This document shows positions 44,273-51,303 of a stretch of 64,000 bases of DNA, piece after piece. Location of the stretch: positions 1-64,000 of the IMG/VR virus record IMGVR_UViG_3300027733_000050; one strand, given 5' to 3'. Each line of letters begins with the position of its first letter. Position 1 is the first letter of the stretch. The notes beneath the pieces were generated by a model, which ran no database searches, had not been told where the DNA came from, and worked only from the letters and a program-made list of their open reading frames with translations. A program made the translations under genes and the position numbers. The DNA is from a virus.

Positions 44273-44725
44273 ATGGAAAAGGTAACTGGAACAAACGGAT
44301 TGAACTTAATAAAGAAGAAAGAGGGTTTTGTTTCGATACCTTATAAATGTCAGGCTGGTGTTCCAACAATAGGTTACGGATCTACTTACTATGAGGATGG
44401 TACAAAGGTTACAATGGCCGATCCTGGGATAACAGAGGTGCAGGCAACTAAACTTTTAAGCAATACAATCAAAGGATTTGAAAAGGCTGTAAACACTTAC
44501 GTCACCAGCGACATTAATCAGAATCAGTTTGATGCTCTAGTTAGCTTCACTTACAATGTAGGGCCTGATCAGTTTAAAAAATCTACATTACTAAAGTATA
44601 TTAATAATAATCCTAACGATCCTAACATAGCACTTGAGTTTGCTAAGTGGGTAAAGATAAAGGGAAATGTATCGAAGGGCCTTGTTAAAAGAAGAGCCGA
44701 AGAGTCGAGTTTATATTTTTCATAA
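44273..44725 (+). CDS. GH24 phage lysozyme (muramidase)
   Basis: LIKKKEGFVSIPYKCQAGVPTIGYGST motif (catalytic Glu in EGF; TIGYG) and FDALVSFTYNVG are typical of the T4/lambda lysozyme family. Confidence 0.7.
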   Translation: MEKVTGTNGLNLIKKKEGFVSIPYKCQAGVPTIGYGSTYYEDGTKVTMADPGITEVQATKLLSNTIKGFEKAVNTYVTSDINQNQFDALVSFTYNVGPDQFKKSTLLKYINNNPNDPNIALEFAKWVKIKGNVSKGLVKRRAEESSLYFS

Positions 44726-44755: not shown

Positions 44756-45664
44756 CTAAGGCATATAATAATACTGCGGTAGCGTTAAGTCAACGATGCC
44801 AAACTTATTTTCTGTTAGCATTCTTTTTTCTATAACACTGTTTCCTATCATTGGCCACGTATCATTTTGAATACAGTTTAGTATCTGCCCTAATACTTCT
44901 CTGTACTGAGATCTTCCGAATGCAATATCATCAGGTAATAACCTGTAGATACAATACTCAAACGGATAAGATTTCTCAATGGCAATGTAGAAATAAGAAC
45001 TGACCTGCTTCTGAGTTACCGCCTCTATCCCATCAATCTGAATAGCCGCTTGCATTGGGTAGTTATACCTTGCTACAGACGATGCAAAATCGTTTGGGTA
45101 AGCACTCTCAGTGGTCTTGATGTCTAGCACGACAATCGTTCCATTAGAAAGTTCGACAAATAGGTCTGGCCTAGTCTTCATGGGTAATCCAGTTCCAGCA
45201 TCGTTCCAATAAACAGATTGCTCAACCTTGCCCATAGATAAATATCTAGACAGTAACTCGTTTGCTATAATTGAATTGTACATGATATCAATGTTAGCAC
45301 TCAAGTCGGAGTCAATAATCTCCTTGCCTAAATCTTTTATTCGCTTTACATACTCTTTATTCTCAGTCTTAGCCATCGTACTGCTAGGAAACGGTAGGTC
45401 TGACTTTCTTAATACATGATACTGCATACTAAACTTTAATGGCTCCAGTATACGAGTGTGTACAATGGTTCCGATCTTAGATGCATCAGTTCTTTGCTCC
45501 TTCTCTCTGAAAGGATATCTGAGGAATTTATACATTGACTTCAACCCTTCCTTTAACCAGGAAGAGCTTATAGAGCCATAATCGTTATGATACGACTCTA
45601 TATCTACGTCAGGATGAATCTCAGCTTTTTTGTTGGGATCTATTGTCCATTTTGTGTAGAACAT
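44756..45664 (-). CDS. RecB-family PD-(D/E)XK exonuclease (YqaJ/Cas4-like)
   Basis: DLFVELSNGTIVVLDIKTT (D..E...D.K core) followed by YNYPMQAAIQ (QxxxY motif of the RecB nuclease family); adjacent to RecT. Confidence 0.65.
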   Translation of the reverse strand: MFYTKWTIDPNKKAEIHPDVDIESYHNDYGSISSSWLKEGLKSMYKFLRYPFREKEQRTDASKIGTIVHTRILEPLKFSMQYHVLRKSDLPFPSSTMAKTENKEYVKRIKDLGKEIIDSDLSANIDIMYNSIIANELLSRYLSMGKVEQSVYWNDAGTGLPMKTRPDLFVELSNGTIVVLDIKTTESAYPNDFASSVARYNYPMQAAIQIDGIEAVTQKQVSSYFYIAIEKSYPFEYCIYRLLPDDIAFGRSQYREVLGQILNCIQNDTWPMIGNSVIEKRMLTENKFGIVDLTLPQYYYMP

Positions 45665-45785
45665 GCTCTTGCTTTTTCTATTGCGTTTTTGACGTTAAAG
45701 TAATACTCTCCTATTGGAAGTTTTTTTTCTGATGATTCCTTCATGGCATCTAATCCTGCCTTTAATTCATCAAAGGAATCAAAAC

Positions 45786-46154
45786 TTAAAAAGGGAGATC
45801 ACTACCTCCAACAGTGGACTCTGGCTTAACAGTTACATTAAATCCAACAGGAACTGTCGCTGTTGCAGGGGCAGTAGCTGTGCTTGGTACAGACGTTGGA
45901 TATTGTGTAAAGCTAGGCGTTGGTACAGCCTGCACCGAAGGTGTTGCCTGAACGGTTCCTCCATTGCTGTTGTCTTCTTGCTGAACAGATCCGCTGAAGA
46001 AGTCTTTGCCTCCATTCTTAGACTGCTTCTTCCACAAAGAAACTTTCATTTTTCTTCCATCAGGCATCTCTAGTGTTCCTGACAATACTGGCTTGTTGCC
46101 ATTTGGTTCGTTTTCGAACAGCGTAATGTACGCTACATGTTTGTAATTTGACAT
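45786..46154 (-). CDS. hypothetical protein with Ser/Thr/Pro/Ala-rich C-terminus (122 aa)
   Basis: ORF track; orientation consistent with the minus-strand block, so the overlapping + ORF 45714-46073 is rejected. Confidence 0.45.
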   Translation of the reverse strand: MSNYKHVAYITLFENEPNGNKPVLSGTLEMPDGRKMKVSLWKKQSKNGGKDFFSGSVQQEDNSNGGTVQATPSVQAVPTPSFTQYPTSVPSTATAPATATVPVGFNVTVKPESTVGGSDLPF

Positions 46155-46159
46155 ATGTA

Positions 46160-46354
46160 TTAATTATTTAAGTGTTTTACTAATTGAATCATTATAAATA
46201 TTATGGACAGGATAAAGAACGCATCTCTGTATGCAGCCATTCTAGCGGAGTTAATTACTCTATTATTAAATAATGATAATAGAAAGTCTGATATAGACAG
46301 TATAGTTAACATGCACGAGAATAATACTATGCACAGGTAAGCTAATTCTTTCAT
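46160..46354 (-). CDS. small membrane protein (64 aa)
   Basis: ORF track; two hydrophobic helices. Confidence 0.35.
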   Translation of the reverse strand: MKELAYLCIVLFSCMLTILSISDFLLSLFNNRVINSARMAAYRDAFFILSIIFIMIQLVKHLNN

Positions 46355-47091
46355 TCCTCGTTAGGTATTTCAACAAAGTCAACATCAAGTAAGTCTTCTG
46401 TATGAACAGGATCTGGTGCTGTCTGTTGATCCATTGTAGACATTGCTGAAGCTAATCTAGAAATGTTCATTGCATCATTCTTAGGAAGGTACTTAAACAA
46501 TCTTCTGATGACTGTCTTTCTTGCCATCTCCGTAAAGTCTGTTCCCCATGCACCATTTAACTTCTGCGATTTCTTGTTCATATCTGAACGCATCGCAATG
46601 TTATACACCTCTTGTGCGGTCATGTACTCTACATACTTAGCATCGTTTGATCCAGTAGCAATAGCATACACACCAATGATATCACCAGGATTTCCATTGA
46701 TGACTGGCTTGTGGGTGATGCTTGTTGATGTTCCGTAGTTAATCTCAAATACATCATTGGCATACACAACCCTTGCCTCAACATTCTTTAAGATACCCGA
46801 ACTAACTAACAAGTAAATCAAGCCTTGGTAACCAGGTTGAAATACACACTTACCTTTTCTTGGAACAAGGTATCCATGTCCCATCACAGGATTAAGTGTT
46901 AGTCCACTCATTGCAATGTTTAATACAGAGCTTGCTACCGACTTAGGATCGCATGCTTGTAAGAATGTATTGTTTGATAAAGCCTGCAATGCGTACATTG
47001 CTTCCTTCTCAAATGCCATATCAGGGGCTATTTGTTTGAATCGCTCCTCCTGTGTAGCGATAGCCTGCTGGGCCAATTTAATGTTGCTCAT
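46351..47091 (-). CDS. recT: RecT-family single-strand annealing protein
   Basis: 246 aa; GHGYLVPRKGKCVFQPGYQGL core typical of RecT/Red-beta-like proteins; overlaps the upstream recombinase gene stop. Confidence 0.6.
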   Translation of the reverse strand: MSNIKLAQQAIATQEERFKQIAPDMAFEKEAMYALQALSNNTFLQACDPKSVASSVLNIAMSGLTLNPVMGHGYLVPRKGKCVFQPGYQGLIYLLVSSGILKNVEARVVYANDVFEINYGTSTSITHKPVINGNPGDIIGVYAIATGSNDAKYVEYMTAQEVYNIAMRSDMNKKSQKLNGAWGTDFTEMARKTVIRRLFKYLPKNDAMNISRLASAMSTMDQQTAPDPVHTEDLLDVDFVEIPNEE

Positions 47092-47768
47092 ATATTTGTT
47101 TGAATTAGTTTCGCTGAATAAAAAAGTCTTTCTAGTTTTCTTGAGTCATATACACCAAAGCCCATGCCATTTATTTTATCGCATATAACTTTATCTGTCA
47201 GGCCAATGTTTCTAAACTCGTTTGCCATTTTATATATAACATCCTTCTGAGGTGTCCAATGCTTCTTTGCAGTAGCTATCGCACCACTCATGTACTCTTG
47301 TGGCTTAAACTCTCGTGGAGTTCCCAACTTGACACCTTTTTTCTTTAGGCTATTCAGTGCATCCTTTGTACGGATGCTACCTCTCTCTGATTCGTATTCT
47401 GCTACGGCCATCATTATCGTTAACACCATCCTGTTAGTAGCCTTGTCGGCATGTGTCGCTGGAAAATCAAGAGCCACAAAGTGTACTCCCATGTTCAGCA
47501 ACTTACCAAGCAATTCTACATCACGACCAAAACGATCTAGCTTGTACACTACCAACGGAAGATCTAACTTAGCGGCTAGACTCATTGCTTCGTGTATCTG
47601 CTTTCTCTTGTGTAACTTCTTTCTGTTACCTGATACGACATCAGTAAATTCGTAGGCTGGCTCCTGCCCCTTGTAGTGATTAATCATACCACTTCTTTGA
47701 GCCTCTAATCCTAATCCTGAGTCACCTTGTTTCACAGATGACACACGATAGTATGCTATGTATTTCAT
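47088..47768 (-). CDS. small serine recombinase (resolvase/invertase family)
   Basis: MKYIAYYRVSSVKQ catalytic-serine motif; LDRFGRD and E-Y-ESER-I motifs of the resolvase catalytic domain; short C-terminal DNA-binding region. Confidence 0.75.
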   Translation of the reverse strand: MKYIAYYRVSSVKQGDSGLGLEAQRSGMINHYKGQEPAYEFTDVVSGNRKKLHKRKQIHEAMSLAAKLDLPLVVYKLDRFGRDVELLGKLLNMGVHFVALDFPATHADKATNRMVLTIMMAVAEYESERGSIRTKDALNSLKKKGVKLGTPREFKPQEYMSGAIATAKKHWTPQKDVIYKMANEFRNIGLTDKVICDKINGMGFGVYDSRKLERLFYSAKLIQTNI

Positions 47769-47782
47769 TGTAGTTGTTTGTG

Positions 47783-47850
47783 TGGAGGATATAGGACTCG
47801 AACCTATTACTAGTGGATTACCACTGCTTTACCTGTTAAGCTAATCCTCC
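47783..47850 (-). ncRNA. tRNA-like element (degenerate/pseudo-tRNA) between the M15 peptidase and serine recombinase genes
   Basis: The minus strand reads GGAGGAT-TA-GCTT-AACAGGTA-AAGC-A-GTGG-TAAT-CCAC-TAGTA-ATAGG-TTCGAGT-CCTAT-ATCCTCC-A: perfect 7-bp acceptor, D-arm and T-arm, but the anticodon arm is about 4 nt short (4-nt loop). Confidence 0.45.
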
Positions 47851-47905
47851 GATGGTGTTGAACATAGGAGCCCCTAACTCCTTGTGCTTTCGCACACACC
47901 ATCAT
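47851..47905 (-). other. long hairpin (GATGGTGT...ACACCATC with an inner GGAG/CTCC stem) directly upstream of the tRNA-like element
   Basis: 8-bp outer inverted repeat; lies 3' of the M15 peptidase gene. Confidence 0.3.
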
Positions 47906-47906
47906 C

Positions 47907-48374
47907 TTAAAAAGGAATATATGAAACCGAATTATTTCTTTTAACTGCCTTTAATACAATCTTTCTCTGTCTTCCTGTTATATCGTAACTAACGTGAACC
48001 CACTCAGGATTATTGTCCGTACCGAACTCCCATATTAACTGATCAAAATCTAGGTTGTTCTTTATGTAGTCAAACAATACTTTGTTTGTAGGCCCATTTA
48101 ATACACCATCTAAGTCAAGATCAAATGCCTGGCCCAAACAATGCTGAGAGGTTGCAGATGAGTTAGATATTTTTGAATTCAACTCCTTGCTACGAAACCC
48201 TGATGTAATAGGAATCTTTATCAGAAACTTCTCACAGCATTTATCGTATACGTTCTTAGCAAGAGCCTCTAGGCACATGATCTGTTGTTGATTTGGTTTG
48301 TTATCAATGTTAAGTCTTGTAGCTGTTGCCGACTTACAAACCTCATCTAATGTTAAATACTTTCCTATAAGCAT
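47907..48374 (-). CDS. peptidase M15 (D-Ala-D-Ala carboxypeptidase/VanY-like) cell-wall hydrolase
   Basis: ITSGFRSKELNSKISNSSATSQHCLGQAFDLDL matches the SGYR..N......S.H..G.A.D signature of Peptidase_M15. Confidence 0.65.
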   Translation of the reverse strand: MLIGKYLTLDEVCKSATATRLNIDNKPNQQQIMCLEALAKNVYDKCCEKFLIKIPITSGFRSKELNSKISNSSATSQHCLGQAFDLDLDGVLNGPTNKVLFDYIKNNLDFDQLIWEFGTDNNPEWVHVSYDITGRQRKIVLKAVKRNNSVSYIPF

Positions 48375-51078: not shown

Positions 51079-51221
51079 GGTTTATTTTATTTGTTGTTAC
51101 GTTACTATTAGTACCACTTTACATATTGTAGAGCATTTACTTTACATATTGTGCATTATATCGCACATTAAGTTGTATTTATTAGGTTAATGTAGCATAA
51201 GTCCATCATTAAGTGCTTTAT

Positions 51222-51303
51222 ATTGCACATTAATTGCACCATAATTGCACCAATTGCACAATTTGTGGCTCATAATGGGCTCATATTGGGCTCAATTGGC
51301 TCA
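51222..51303. repeat. two iteron arrays with identical 11-11-9 bp spacing: 4x ATTGCAC (51222, 51233, 51244, 51253) and 4x GGCTCA (51267, 51278, 51289, 51298)
   Basis: Direct repeats at helical-turn spacing inside a 480-bp AT-rich intergenic region; origin-of-replication or regulator-binding array. Confidence 0.55.

What the first reader, a model, noticed from the sequence alone, without database searches (positions are those of the whole stretch)
47769..47905. Degenerate tRNA-like element plus long hairpin immediately upstream of the serine recombinase
A 68-nt sequence on the minus strand has a perfect 7-bp acceptor stem, D-arm and canonical T-arm (GGTTCGAGTCC) but a truncated anticodon arm (4-nt loop), so it is probably not a functional tRNA. 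It abuts the start of a small serine recombinase. Phage attP cores frequently derive from tRNA genes, so this may be the recombinase's attachment/crossover site. It could equally be a tRNA-like RNA processing signal separating the lysis genes from the recombinase.
Basis: partly seen in the sequence, partly recalled or inferred. Interest (0 to 1): 0.55.

Follow-up and report, generated by a model that had tools for sequence, protein, structure and literature searches.

The report
Anticodon-less tRNA-like RNA in a phage operon
Between a phage's cell-wall-cutting enzyme gene and its recombinase gene sits a conserved folded RNA, a tRNA-Trp copy whose anticodon was deleted, fused to a Y-shaped hairpin; it most likely marks where the cell's tRNA-processing enzymes cut the phage message, not where the recombinase acts.

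Summary
Window 47783-47850 (- strand) is a 68-nt cloverleaf. It scores 54.9 bits on Rfam tRNA (threshold 29), and ARAGORN rejects it. It has a 7-bp acceptor stem, a D-arm and a canonical T-arm, but its anticodon arm is a 5-bp stem with a 4-nt loop. A 53-nt Y-shaped hairpin domain (47851-47903) touches its first base.

Its closest intact relatives are phage tRNA-Trp(CCA) genes. The element equals such a tRNA minus exactly five bases, C32-A36, which include the anticodon.

It is not decaying. Six sequence variants from related phage contigs keep all 40 base pairs, and five stem changes all give G.U. The D/T-loop core is invariant, while all four anticodon-loop positions vary and the loop stays 4 nt long. 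Neighbouring third codon positions are only 55-74% identical, against 93% for the element.

The attP idea is not supported. The neighbour is a small resolvase-type serine recombinase, whose homologues in the same recombinase-RecT-exonuclease module lack the element. No second site and no split or prophage copy was found.

Best reading (about 0.45): a co-transcribed tRNA-like punctuation and stability element, cut by RNase P and RNase Z. A trans-acting tRNA mimic remains possible. This is a new variant of a known kind.

The parts
47851..47903 (-). Y-shaped hairpin domain. The 8-bp closing stem pairs 47903-47896 with 47858-47851. Hairpin 1 is 47895-47884 (4 bp with a GAAA or GUAA loop). Hairpin 2 is 47882-47866 (7 bp). 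A 7-nt single-stranded junction follows at 47865-47859. The domain abuts G1 of the tRNA-like element with a 0-nt linker.
   Evidence: MFE fold. All 19 pairs are kept in 6 variants, with 3 one-sided changes to G.U. A covariance model of it finds no other copy in the window or in 61 loci.
47783..47850 (-). tRNA-like cloverleaf derived from tRNA-Trp. Acceptor stem 47850-47844 pairs with 47790-47784. D-arm is 47841-47826, T-arm 47807-47791, discriminator A at 47783. No CCA is encoded.
   Evidence: Rfam tRNA 54.9 bits; fold; alignment to phage tRNA-Trp(CCA) genes; 21 pairs kept in all variants.
47812..47825 (-). Truncated anticodon arm: a 5-bp stem (counting A26-U44) with a 4-nt loop at 47820-47817. 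The five bases C32-U33-C34-C35-A36 of the parent tRNA-Trp are missing.
   Evidence: The loop is UAAU, UAUU, GAAA or GCAA in the variants and always 4 nt.
47769..47782 (-). 14-nt A/C-rich, unstructured leader (CACAAACAACUACA) between the discriminator base and the recombinase ATG. It would be the 5' end of the downstream mRNA after a cut 3' of the tRNA-like element.
   Evidence: Sequence; unpaired in the MFE fold. The cut itself is inferred.
47907..48374 (-). Upstream cistron: M15-family endolysin (155 aa), the last gene of a lysis cassette. Its stop codon lies 3 nt before the hairpin domain.
   Evidence: Pfam PF08291 and phrog_894 endolysin.
47088..47768 (-). Downstream cistron: small serine recombinase (226 aa, Resolvase N-terminal domain only). 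It is the first gene of a recombinase-RecT-SSB-like-DUF3799 exonuclease module.
   Evidence: Pfam PF00239; phrog_125 DNA invertase; homologues.

Best explanation
The 138-nt gap between the endolysin and recombinase genes is filled by one structured RNA transcribed with both genes. It consists of a Y-shaped hairpin domain directly fused to a tRNA-like cloverleaf.

The cloverleaf descends from a phage tRNA-Trp(CCA) gene that lost exactly the five loop bases holding the anticodon. It can no longer decode. It keeps everything the tRNA-processing enzymes read: a 7-bp acceptor stem stacked on the T-arm, the D-loop/T-loop elbow, and the discriminator base.

Proposed mechanism (inferred, not shown): host RNase P cuts between C(-1) and G(+1). 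RNase Z, or an equivalent enzyme, cuts after A73. This splits the long early/lysis transcript into three products:
- an upstream lysis mRNA that ends flush with the stable hairpin domain, which would protect its 3' end from exonucleases;
- a free RNA of about 68 nt that cannot decode;
- a downstream recombination-module mRNA that begins with a 14-nt unstructured leader.

Shown here: the fold, its tRNA-Trp origin, the selection on it, and its independence from the recombinase family. Inferred: the cleavages and their effect on expression.
For: 1. Fold and tRNA score.

2. Origin. The best full-length matches among 50,697 phage records are tRNA-Trp(CCA) genes of Leeuwenhoekiella phage Arctus_1 and Bacillus phage CP-51. 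The alignment shows a clean 5-nt gap at CUCCA.

3. Purifying selection. Against L033 the flanking genes are 55-74% identical at third codon positions and 83.6% identical overall, while the 122-column element is 93.4% identical, with 8 differences. The adjacent 150 nt on each side are 72% and 82% identical at third positions. The binomial P is 3e-5 even at 20% neutral divergence. Against L092 the element is 121/121 identical, versus 92.8% overall.

4. Selection on the fold. In 6 distinct variants 240 of 240 pair cells are standard pairs. Five pairs changed on one side and all became G.U, which pairs only on the sense strand. Simulating 14 random substitutions gives P = 1e-5 to 3e-4 that none breaks a pair.

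5. Selection on tRNA shape, not decoding. The 17 unpaired core positions (U8, A9, D-loop, T-loop) are invariant, while all 4 anticodon-loop positions vary and the length stays at 4. My own hypergeometric count from those alignments gives about 2e-4.

6. Co-transcription is plausible. The genes are on the same strand. No terminator, sigma-70 promoter or Bacteroidetes-type promoter motif lies at the element. No ORF of 40 aa or more overlaps it.

7. Precedent. A 7-bp acceptor stem is a major RNase P determinant, and tRNA-like modules are cut and CCA-tailed in vivo (PMC4201824). RNase P separates secG mRNA from leuU tRNA in E. coli (PMC2241853).
Against: - No transcript data exist, so the cleavage sites are inferred only.
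- There are no double compensatory changes. Only G.U-preserving transitions were seen, because the variants are close to one another.
- Another intergenic region, 45665-45785, is also 89% conserved, so raw conservation alone is not specific.
- An intact tRNA, or a bare acceptor/T minihelix, would serve as a processing signal equally well. Punctuation therefore does not explain why the anticodon stem is kept invariant or why the loop length stays fixed.
- A helix ending flush at position -1 could hinder rather than help RNase P.
- The closest phages sharing the lysis cassette (L001-L004) and those sharing the recombination module (L038-L049) do without the element.
Confidence: 0.45

Rival explanations
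1. The excised tRNA-like RNA is itself the functional product. It would be a non-decoding tRNA mimic that binds or titrates a host or phage factor recognising the tRNA body. Candidates are a tRNA-directed defence nuclease or toxin, a modification enzyme, the CCA-adding enzyme, or a synthetase that ignores the anticodon. The hairpin domain and the operon position would only provide expression and maturation.
For: The anticodon stem (GUGG/CCAC) and the 4-nt loop length are kept in all 6 variants, although processing enzymes do not need this arm. Two of the four loop versions are GNRA caps (GAAA, GCAA). All elbow nucleotides are invariant. A second, unrelated family of tRNA-likes with a 5-bp/4-nt anticodon arm shows real covariation, with 6 doubly changed pairs and 0 of 500 shuffles reaching that, so such RNAs recur.
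Against: No partner protein is evident. The neighbours are an endolysin and recombination genes. The loop sequence is free to vary, so there is no sequence-specific loop contact. The element is confined to one narrow phage lineage. No literature precedent for such a decoy was found.
Confidence: 0.2
2. It is the attachment or crossover site (attP, or a res/hix-type site) of the adjacent serine recombinase, acting as double-stranded DNA.
For: It lies 14 nt upstream of the recombinase gene. Resolvase and invertase sites often lie next to their genes (general knowledge).
Against: - The recombinase is small (226 aa, PF00239 only).
- Six homologues in the same module lack the element.
- The substitutions preserve RNA pairs through G.U, which become A-C mismatches on the other strand, and DNA-site selection would not do that.
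- D/T-loop conservation follows tRNA rules.
- No second copy or half-site is in the 64-kb window.
- The locus is contiguous in every assembly fetched.
- A pattern scan of 185,579 species genomes found no copy.
- Serine recombinases do not need tRNA-derived homology (established knowledge).
Confidence: 0.04
3. It is a dead tRNA-Trp gene, a neutral relic of a deletion that happens to survive in a young lineage and has no function of its own.
For: It descends from tRNA-Trp by one 5-nt deletion. Truncated tRNA-likes also occur sporadically inside phage tRNA arrays, where decay is plausible. The lineage carrying it is narrow.
Against: It shows 93% identity where neighbouring third codon positions show 55-74%. 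None of 14 substitutions breaks a pair. The 17 core loop positions are invariant, while the loop that used to hold the anticodon varies at all 4 positions. The adjoining non-tRNA hairpin domain is conserved in the same way.
Confidence: 0.1
4. It is a DNA-level structure on the single-stranded sense strand, such as a priming or origin signal or a recombination hotspot for the RecT/exonuclease module.
For: It sits at a mosaic boundary between the lysis cassette and the recombination module. G.T wobbles are tolerated in single-stranded DNA hairpins.
Against: The conserved unpaired nucleotides are exactly the tRNA elbow and T-loop set read by RNA enzymes. GNRA-to-GNRA loop switches (GAAA/GUAA, GAAA/GCAA) are an RNA signature. 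There are no iterons or AT-rich tract at the site.
Confidence: 0.05

Closest known systems
mascRNA/MALAT1 and MEN-beta tRNA-like 3'-end processing modules of mammals (Wilusz et al. 2008; cited from memory)
   Same: A tRNA-like cloverleaf with a reduced, non-decoding anticodon arm is embedded in a longer transcript. RNase P cuts at its 5' side. The upstream RNA is left ending in a protective structure that directly precedes the cut.
   Different: Here it is a bacterial virus. The upstream protector is a Y-shaped hairpin domain, not a triple helix. Coding RNA follows downstream. Cleavage is not shown here. There is no sequence relationship.
Bacterial mRNA-tRNA co-transcripts separated by RNase P, e.g. 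E. coli secG-leuU (PMC2241853); mitochondrial tRNA punctuation (general knowledge)
   Same: A tRNA-shaped unit inside a polycistronic transcript serves as the cutting mark between messages.
   Different: Those units are working tRNAs. This one has lost its anticodon, yet its shape is still under selection.
Phage-encoded tRNA-Trp(CCA) genes: Leeuwenhoekiella phage vB_LaeS_Arctus_1 (PP314354.1 12904-12975) and Bacillus phage CP-51
   Same: They are the closest sequences. They share D-loop UUAACAGGUA, anticodon-stem GG/CC, the AA of the loop, and the T-arm.
   Different: The element is 5 nt shorter (C32-A36 missing). Its discriminator is A, not the G of those tRNA-Trp genes. ARAGORN rejects it.
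YrlA-type bacterial and phage Y RNAs with a tRNA-like module (PMC4201824)
   Same: It is a non-decoding tRNA mimic found in bacteria and phages. The D/T elbow is kept. It is a substrate for RNase P and CCA addition when the acceptor stem has 7 bp.
   Different: In Y RNAs the acceptor-like stem continues into a Ro60-binding helix formed by the 5' and 3' ends, and the gene sits next to Ro60. Here the flanks are not complementary. The neighbours are an endolysin and a recombinase. No Y-RNA family matched.
tRNA-gene-derived attP sites of temperate phages
   Same: tRNA-related sequence lies next to a recombinase gene.
   Different: Those are partial tRNA 3' segments used by tyrosine integrases, or unrelated short sites used by large serine integrases. 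Here a complete cloverleaf evolves under RNA-pairing rules beside a small resolvase-type enzyme.
RNase P-matured phage regulatory or stable RNAs: P1/P7 C4, P4 CI, T4 species 1 and 2 RNAs (cited from memory)
   Same: Phage transcripts carry tRNA-like acceptor/T features so that host RNase P shapes them.
   Different: Those are not full cloverleaves derived from an identifiable tRNA by an anticodon deletion. No antisense target is evident here.

Membership tests
Decoding tRNA (Rfam RF00005 / tRNA-Trp) | Cloverleaf with 7-bp acceptor stem, D-arm and T-arm, scoring above the Rfam gathering score | tested here: met
   54.9 bits against 29; fold.
Decoding tRNA (Rfam RF00005 / tRNA-Trp) | 5-bp anticodon stem with a 7-nt loop holding U33 and an anticodon triplet | tested here: not met
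   The loop is 4 nt in all 6 variants, and 9 model positions are replaced by 4. ARAGORN finds no tRNA.
Decoding tRNA (Rfam RF00005 / tRNA-Trp) | Bacterial tRNA-Trp identity: CCA anticodon and G73 discriminator (established knowledge) | tested here: not met
   The anticodon is deleted. The discriminator is A, where the two intact phage tRNA-Trp genes have G.
Phage attP / recombinase target site | Adjacent integrase of a type known to integrate phages (tyrosine integrase or large serine integrase) | tested here: not met
   The protein is 226 aa with only PF00239 Resolvase. Its best PHROG is DNA invertase.
Phage attP / recombinase target site | Site travels with the recombinase in related elements | tested here: not met
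   Homologues P0002-P0006 and P0008 (50-57% identity) have 0-24 nt upstream and no tRNA-like hit.
Phage attP / recombinase target site | Matching host attB or split attL/attR junctions in genomes | tested here: inconclusive
   No copy among 28 pattern hits in 185,579 species genomes. All assemblies fetched are contiguous. The scan used a single exact pattern, and the host is unknown.
tRNA-like processing / punctuation element (mascRNA-type, mRNA-tRNA co-transcript) | RNase P/Z determinants: 7-bp acceptor stem stacked on T-arm, intact D/T elbow, discriminator base | tested here: met
   Read directly from the sequence: U8, A14, G18G19, A21, G53-U54-U55-C56, A58, C61. All are invariant in the variants.
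tRNA-like processing / punctuation element (mascRNA-type, mRNA-tRNA co-transcript) | Lies inside a transcript between same-strand genes, with no promoter or terminator of its own | tested here: inconclusive
   Same strand, 3 nt after a stop codon and 14 nt before a start codon. No consensus promoter or terminator at the site. Consensus scans are weak evidence, and there are no RNA data.
tRNA-like processing / punctuation element (mascRNA-type, mRNA-tRNA co-transcript) | Observed endonucleolytic cleavage at the tRNA-like 5' and 3' ends | not testable with these tools
   Needs end-mapping or in vitro RNase P/Z assays.
YrlA / Y RNA | Ro60-binding helix formed by the 5' and 3' flanks of the tRNA-like module, and a neighbouring Ro60 (TROVE) gene | tested here: not met
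   The flanks (…ACACCAUC and ACACAAAC…) are not complementary. The ten neighbouring proteins have no TROVE hit. No Y-RNA Rfam hit at E up to 10 locally or at the gathering score window-wide. Not every ORF of the window was scanned.

The most novel reading that the evidence does not exclude
The element is one example of an unrecognised class of anticodon-less tRNA mimics, in which the tRNA body is kept and the anticodon loop is replaced by a 4-nt cap. Phages would make these by hijacking host tRNA maturation. The released RNA would act in trans, for example by soaking up a tRNA-directed defence nuclease or toxin, or another protein that binds the tRNA elbow or acceptor.

An independent rumen/Bacteroidaceae family with the same arm geometry shows true covariation. 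Similar elements occur in Chamaesiphon genomes. Both hint that the design recurs.
Probability: 0.15. Interest if true: 0.8.

Novelty: new variant of a known kind. Interest (0 to 1): 0.5.

Why it matters
Phage tRNA genes are usually discussed as codon-usage aids or as replacements for host tRNAs destroyed by defence nucleases. This case shows a phage keeping a tRNA's shape under clear selection after discarding its anticodon. So the tRNA body has a use of its own, in message processing and stability or as a mimic.

If the processing model holds, it is a bacterial-virus counterpart of the MALAT1/mascRNA 3'-end mechanism. It would also be a compact natural part for splitting and stabilising polycistronic RNAs.

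There is a practical warning too. tRNA finders disagree on such elements: Rfam accepts this one and ARAGORN rejects it. They can therefore be mis-annotated as tRNAs, as pseudogenes or as att sites.

Tried and rejected
- **INPHARED searches of the region.** Near and distant DNA searches found no related phage.
- **Exact or degenerate patterns of the element in IMG/VR.** No hits. This lineage is absent from that collection.
- **Recombinase-based locus search in IMG/VR.** Nothing found.
- **Endolysin relatives in IMG/VR (32 loci).** No tRNA or tRNA-like element. The closest four share the lysis cassette but carry a different downstream gene.
- **Repeat and short-BLAST searches for a second copy or half-site in the window.** Only chance-level matches.
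- **Promoter and terminator scans (sigma-70, intrinsic terminator, Bacteroidetes-type promoter).** Nothing at the element.
- **Covariance model of the hairpin domain.** The only hit is the site itself, across the window and 61 loci.
- **PHROG annotation of 19 other genes.** Almost no functions; no integrase or repressor was recognised, so the phage lifestyle stays unknown.
- **Genome-collection scan.** No prophage or host copy.
- **Literature searches.** No description of an anticodon-deleted tRNA-like element in a phage operon.
- **Rejected alternatives.** tmRNA (ARAGORN); Y RNA (flanks not complementary, no Ro60 nearby); assembly artefact (the 4-nt loop recurs with four different sequences in independent samples).

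Full report
**Setting**

The window is a 36.6% G+C phage genome segment. Long structural genes lie on the + strand up to 44725, including a weak large-terminase match. A block of small genes on the - strand runs from about 61530 down to 44756.

On that strand the order is as follows:
- a lysis cassette ending in an M15 endolysin (47907-48374);
- a 138-nt gap;
- a 226-aa Resolvase-domain serine recombinase (47088-47768);
- RecT (46351-47091);
- a 64-aa ORF (46160-46354);
- an SSB-like protein (45786-46154; SSB-like by eye from its C-terminal DLPF tail, no Pfam or PHROG hit);
- a DUF3799/exonuclease VIII-like nuclease (44756-45664).

More distant recombinase homologues are named from Bacteroidia and Flavobacterium, so a Bacteroidota host is likely. 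That is an inference.

**Observation**

Positions 47783-47850 (- strand) score 54.9 bits on the Rfam tRNA model (gathering score 29; E = 1.2e-10 locally, 4.6e-9 window-wide). This is the only Rfam hit in the 64 kb. ARAGORN finds no tRNA or tmRNA.

The fold is a clean cloverleaf (-23.4 kcal/mol, z = -4.6):
- acceptor stem GGAGGAU/AUCCUCC;
- D-stem GCUU/AAGC with loop AACAGGUA;
- T-arm AUAGG-UUCGAGU-CCUAU;
- a 5-nt variable loop and discriminator A;
- an anticodon arm of only A-GUGG-UAAU-CCAC-U.

The standard tertiary-contact bases are all present: U8, A14, G18G19, A21, G46, G53-U54-U55-C56, A58 and C61. This is read directly from the sequence.

Immediately 5', with no linker, lies a 53-nt Y-shaped domain (47851-47903). 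Its 8-bp closing stem encloses UGC-GAAA-GCA-type hairpin 1 and a 7-bp hairpin 2, followed by a 7-nt single strand. The whole 142 nt folds at -47.5 kcal/mol, z = -5.0.

The structured RNA fills the gap. It starts 3 nt after the endolysin stop codon and ends 14 nt before the recombinase ATG. No ORF of 40 aa or more overlaps it. Only "long hairpin" needs refining, to a three-way junction.

**Origin**

A sensitive search of 50,697 phage records gave two top full-length matches. Both are tRNA-Trp(CCA) genes, from a Flavobacteriaceae phage (Leeuwenhoekiella phage Arctus_1) and from Bacillus phage CP-51 (ARAGORN).

The alignment shows one clean 5-nt gap. The parent reads GUGG-U-CUCCA-AA-A-CCAC. The element lacks CUCCA, that is C32, U33 and the anticodon C34-C35-A36.

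Among 331 tRNAs in all fetched loci, these two Trp genes remain the best matches. This set includes the two BLAST-selected loci, so it is not an independent test. The discriminator is A, where those tRNA-Trp genes have G.

**Relatives and selection**

The recombinase belongs to a 90%-identity cluster of 20 proteins. Every member context fetched has the same endolysin / 139-140-nt gap / recombinase arrangement and carries the element. These are L033-L037, L092 and L184-L190, from JGI, ENA and Logan samples.

There are six distinct versions. The anticodon-arm loop is UAAU, UAUU, GAAA or GCAA. All four positions vary, the length is always 4 nt, and two versions are GNRA caps. The hairpin-1 loop switches between GAAA and GUAA, both GNRA.

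Divergence against L033:
- The surrounding 5.2 kb is 83.6% identical.
- Third codon positions of the six flanking genes are 55-74% identical.
- The element is 93.4% identical, with 8 differences in 122 columns.
- In the adjacent 150 nt on each side, third positions are 72% and 82% identical.
- The binomial probability of 8 or fewer differences is 3e-5 even at 20% neutral divergence.

Against L092 the element is identical at 121 of 121 positions, where the region as a whole is 92.8% identical.

Counting pairs on the proposed structure gives 40 pairs, and 240 of 240 cells are standard pairs. Five pairs changed on one side and all became G.U:
- U15-A53 in the closing stem;
- A29-U45 and A32-U42 in hairpin 2;
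- G5-C68 in the acceptor stem;
- A26-U44 in the anticodon stem.

A simulation of 14 random substitutions leaves every pair intact with P = 1e-5 to 3e-4. G.U pairs exist only on the gene-sense strand, so the constraint is on that strand's fold.

Within the cloverleaf, the 17 unpaired core positions (U8, A9, D-loop, T-loop) never vary, while the 4 loop positions all do. My hypergeometric count gives about 2e-4. This is the pattern expected if tRNA shape is selected and decoding is not.

Limits of this evidence:
- No pair has a double compensatory change.
- The variants are closely related.
- Another intergenic stretch (45665-45785) is also 89% conserved.

**Is it the recombinase's site?**

- The enzyme has only PF00239 and is resolvase/invertase-sized.
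- Homologues at 50-57% identity (P0002-P0006, P0008) sit in the same recombinase-RecT-SSB/DUF3127-DUF3799 module. They have 0-24 nt upstream and no tRNA-like hit.
- Phages sharing the lysis cassette (endolysin about 72% identical, L001-L004) carry a different ORF downstream and no tRNA-like element. That ORF looks HNH-like by eye, which was not verified.
- No part of the element recurs in the window.
- A pattern scan that does recover the element in metagenomes (L092) found no copy in 185,579 species genomes.
- All assemblies fetched show the locus uninterrupted.
- Serine recombinases need no att homology, and the tRNA-restoring logic belongs to tyrosine integrases (established knowledge).

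I put the attP reading at about 4%.

**Mechanism**

Established knowledge says that RNase P, RNase Z and the CCA-adding enzyme read the acceptor/T-arm stack, the elbow and the discriminator, not the anticodon. All of these features are intact and invariant here, so excision of the cloverleaf is the default expectation.

No promoter or terminator consensus lies at the site. I therefore infer co-transcription with both neighbours.

A cut at C-1/G+1 would leave the lysis mRNA ending flush with the 8-bp closing stem of the hairpin domain, a plausible 3' exonuclease block. A cut after A73 would start the recombination-module mRNA with the unstructured leader CACAAACAACUACA-AUG.

If the flush helix instead blocks RNase P, the upstream mRNA would end in the hairpin domain plus the tRNA-like element, as in a viral 3' tRNA-like structure. 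The stabilising outcome would be similar.

What punctuation does not explain is the invariant anticodon stem and the fixed loop length. This keeps the trans-acting mimic model alive at about 0.2.

**Wider survey (side result)**

The pattern GGTAAAGC-N19-23-GGTTCGAGTCC selects D-to-T spacings too short for a normal anticodon arm. It found 91 metagenome, 28 genome and 15 IMG/VR stretches.

Twenty-three of the 91 metagenome stretches, about 18 of them distinct sequences, pass simple stem checks for a cloverleaf with a shortened arm. Many lie in phage tRNA arrays, where decay is plausible.

One rumen/Bacteroidaceae family has a 5-bp/4-nt arm and genuine covariation: 6 doubly changed pairs, with 0 of 500 shuffles reaching that. 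Three Chamaesiphon genomes carry a similar element with GNNA caps.

The design therefore recurs, but I did not establish a common function.

**Verdict**

The element is a selected, non-decoding derivative of tRNA-Trp fused to a hairpin domain. That makes it a new variant of known tRNA-like processing and mimic elements, of moderate interest. The mechanism still rests on inference.

Noticed in passing
L054, L085, L089/L097/L174, L090, L115, L122, L131, L139, L149 (e.g. L054 2304-2373 +; L174 9405-9474 -): A separate family of about 70-nt tRNA-likes from rumen metagenomes, an IMG/VR contig and a Bacteroidaceae MAG. The anticodon arm is UCGCA-NNNN-UGCGG (5 bp with a 4-nt loop). There are 6 pairs with compensatory double changes, one of them in the short arm. 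They lie near one or two ordinary tRNAs and are preceded by a conserved upstream sequence of about 60 nt.
   Followed up: partly
L143 4721-4790 (+), L146 and L161 on the - strand (reverse-complement coordinate starts 5279 and 1188); Chamaesiphon genomes: Three cyanobacterial genomes carry a tRNA-like element with the arm ACCGA/GCCGA-G(C/U/G)UA-UCGGU. Its 4-nt loop begins with G and ends with A. The acceptor stems differ between species but stay paired. In L143 an ordinary tRNA follows 4 nt downstream.
   Followed up: no
L065, L067, L095, L102, L107, L117, L126, L170, L171, L173, L175, L176, L178, L180, L182: A recurrent viral motif: …GGUAGGUGGUAAAUGGUAAAGC-G-UCCGA-GGCA-UCGGA…GGUUCGAGUCC…GGCAGGUG. 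It has a GNRA-capped arm and a T-arm but no obvious 7-bp acceptor stem. In the two contexts checked with Rfam (L170, L171) it lies inside a phage tRNA array, and in L171 Rfam reads the region as a 117-nt weak tRNA hit.
   Followed up: no
window 44756-47768 (-); L038, L044-L048: A conserved recombination module recurs across diverged phages: small serine recombinase, then RecT, then an SSB-like or DUF3127 protein, then a DUF3799 (exonuclease VIII-like) nuclease. In L047/L048 the gene order is permuted. The role of a resolvase-type enzyme in a RecT/exonuclease module is unexplained.
   Followed up: partly
window 44273-44725 (+) and 47907-48374 (-): The phage carries two different cell-wall hydrolase genes. 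One is a PF00959 lysozyme-type endolysin at the end of the + strand block. The other is the M15 peptidase in the - strand lysis cassette. They lie about 3 kb apart on opposite strands, on either side of the recombination module.
   Followed up: no
L001-L004 (e.g. L003 4416-5090): In the closest IMG/VR phages that share the lysis cassette, a 224-aa ORF overlaps the 3' end of the endolysin gene at the place where the window has the tRNA-like element. It looks HNH-endonuclease-like by eye, which was not verified. This position is therefore a mosaic junction between modules.
   Followed up: partly
window 51151-51264: A cluster of short direct repeats built on ATTGCAC (families D8, D10, D19; 11-nt and 62-nt spacings) lies in an intergenic stretch of the - strand block. 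It looks like an operator or iteron array.
   Followed up: no
window 45665-45785: The intergenic region between the SSB-like gene and the exonuclease gene is 89% identical to L033 (108 of 121 positions). It contains a 20-nt inverted repeat (45722-45741 with 45773-45792). This is another conserved non-coding stretch of unknown role.
   Followed up: no
window 47851-47903 (-): The hairpin domain has the same branch order as a T-arm-less tRNA: an 8-bp closing stem, a 4-bp hairpin, a 1-nt spacer, a 7-bp hairpin, then a 7-nt strand AUGUUCA. It could be a second, more degraded tRNA remnant. Rfam gives no tRNA hit for it even at E up to 10.
   Followed up: partly
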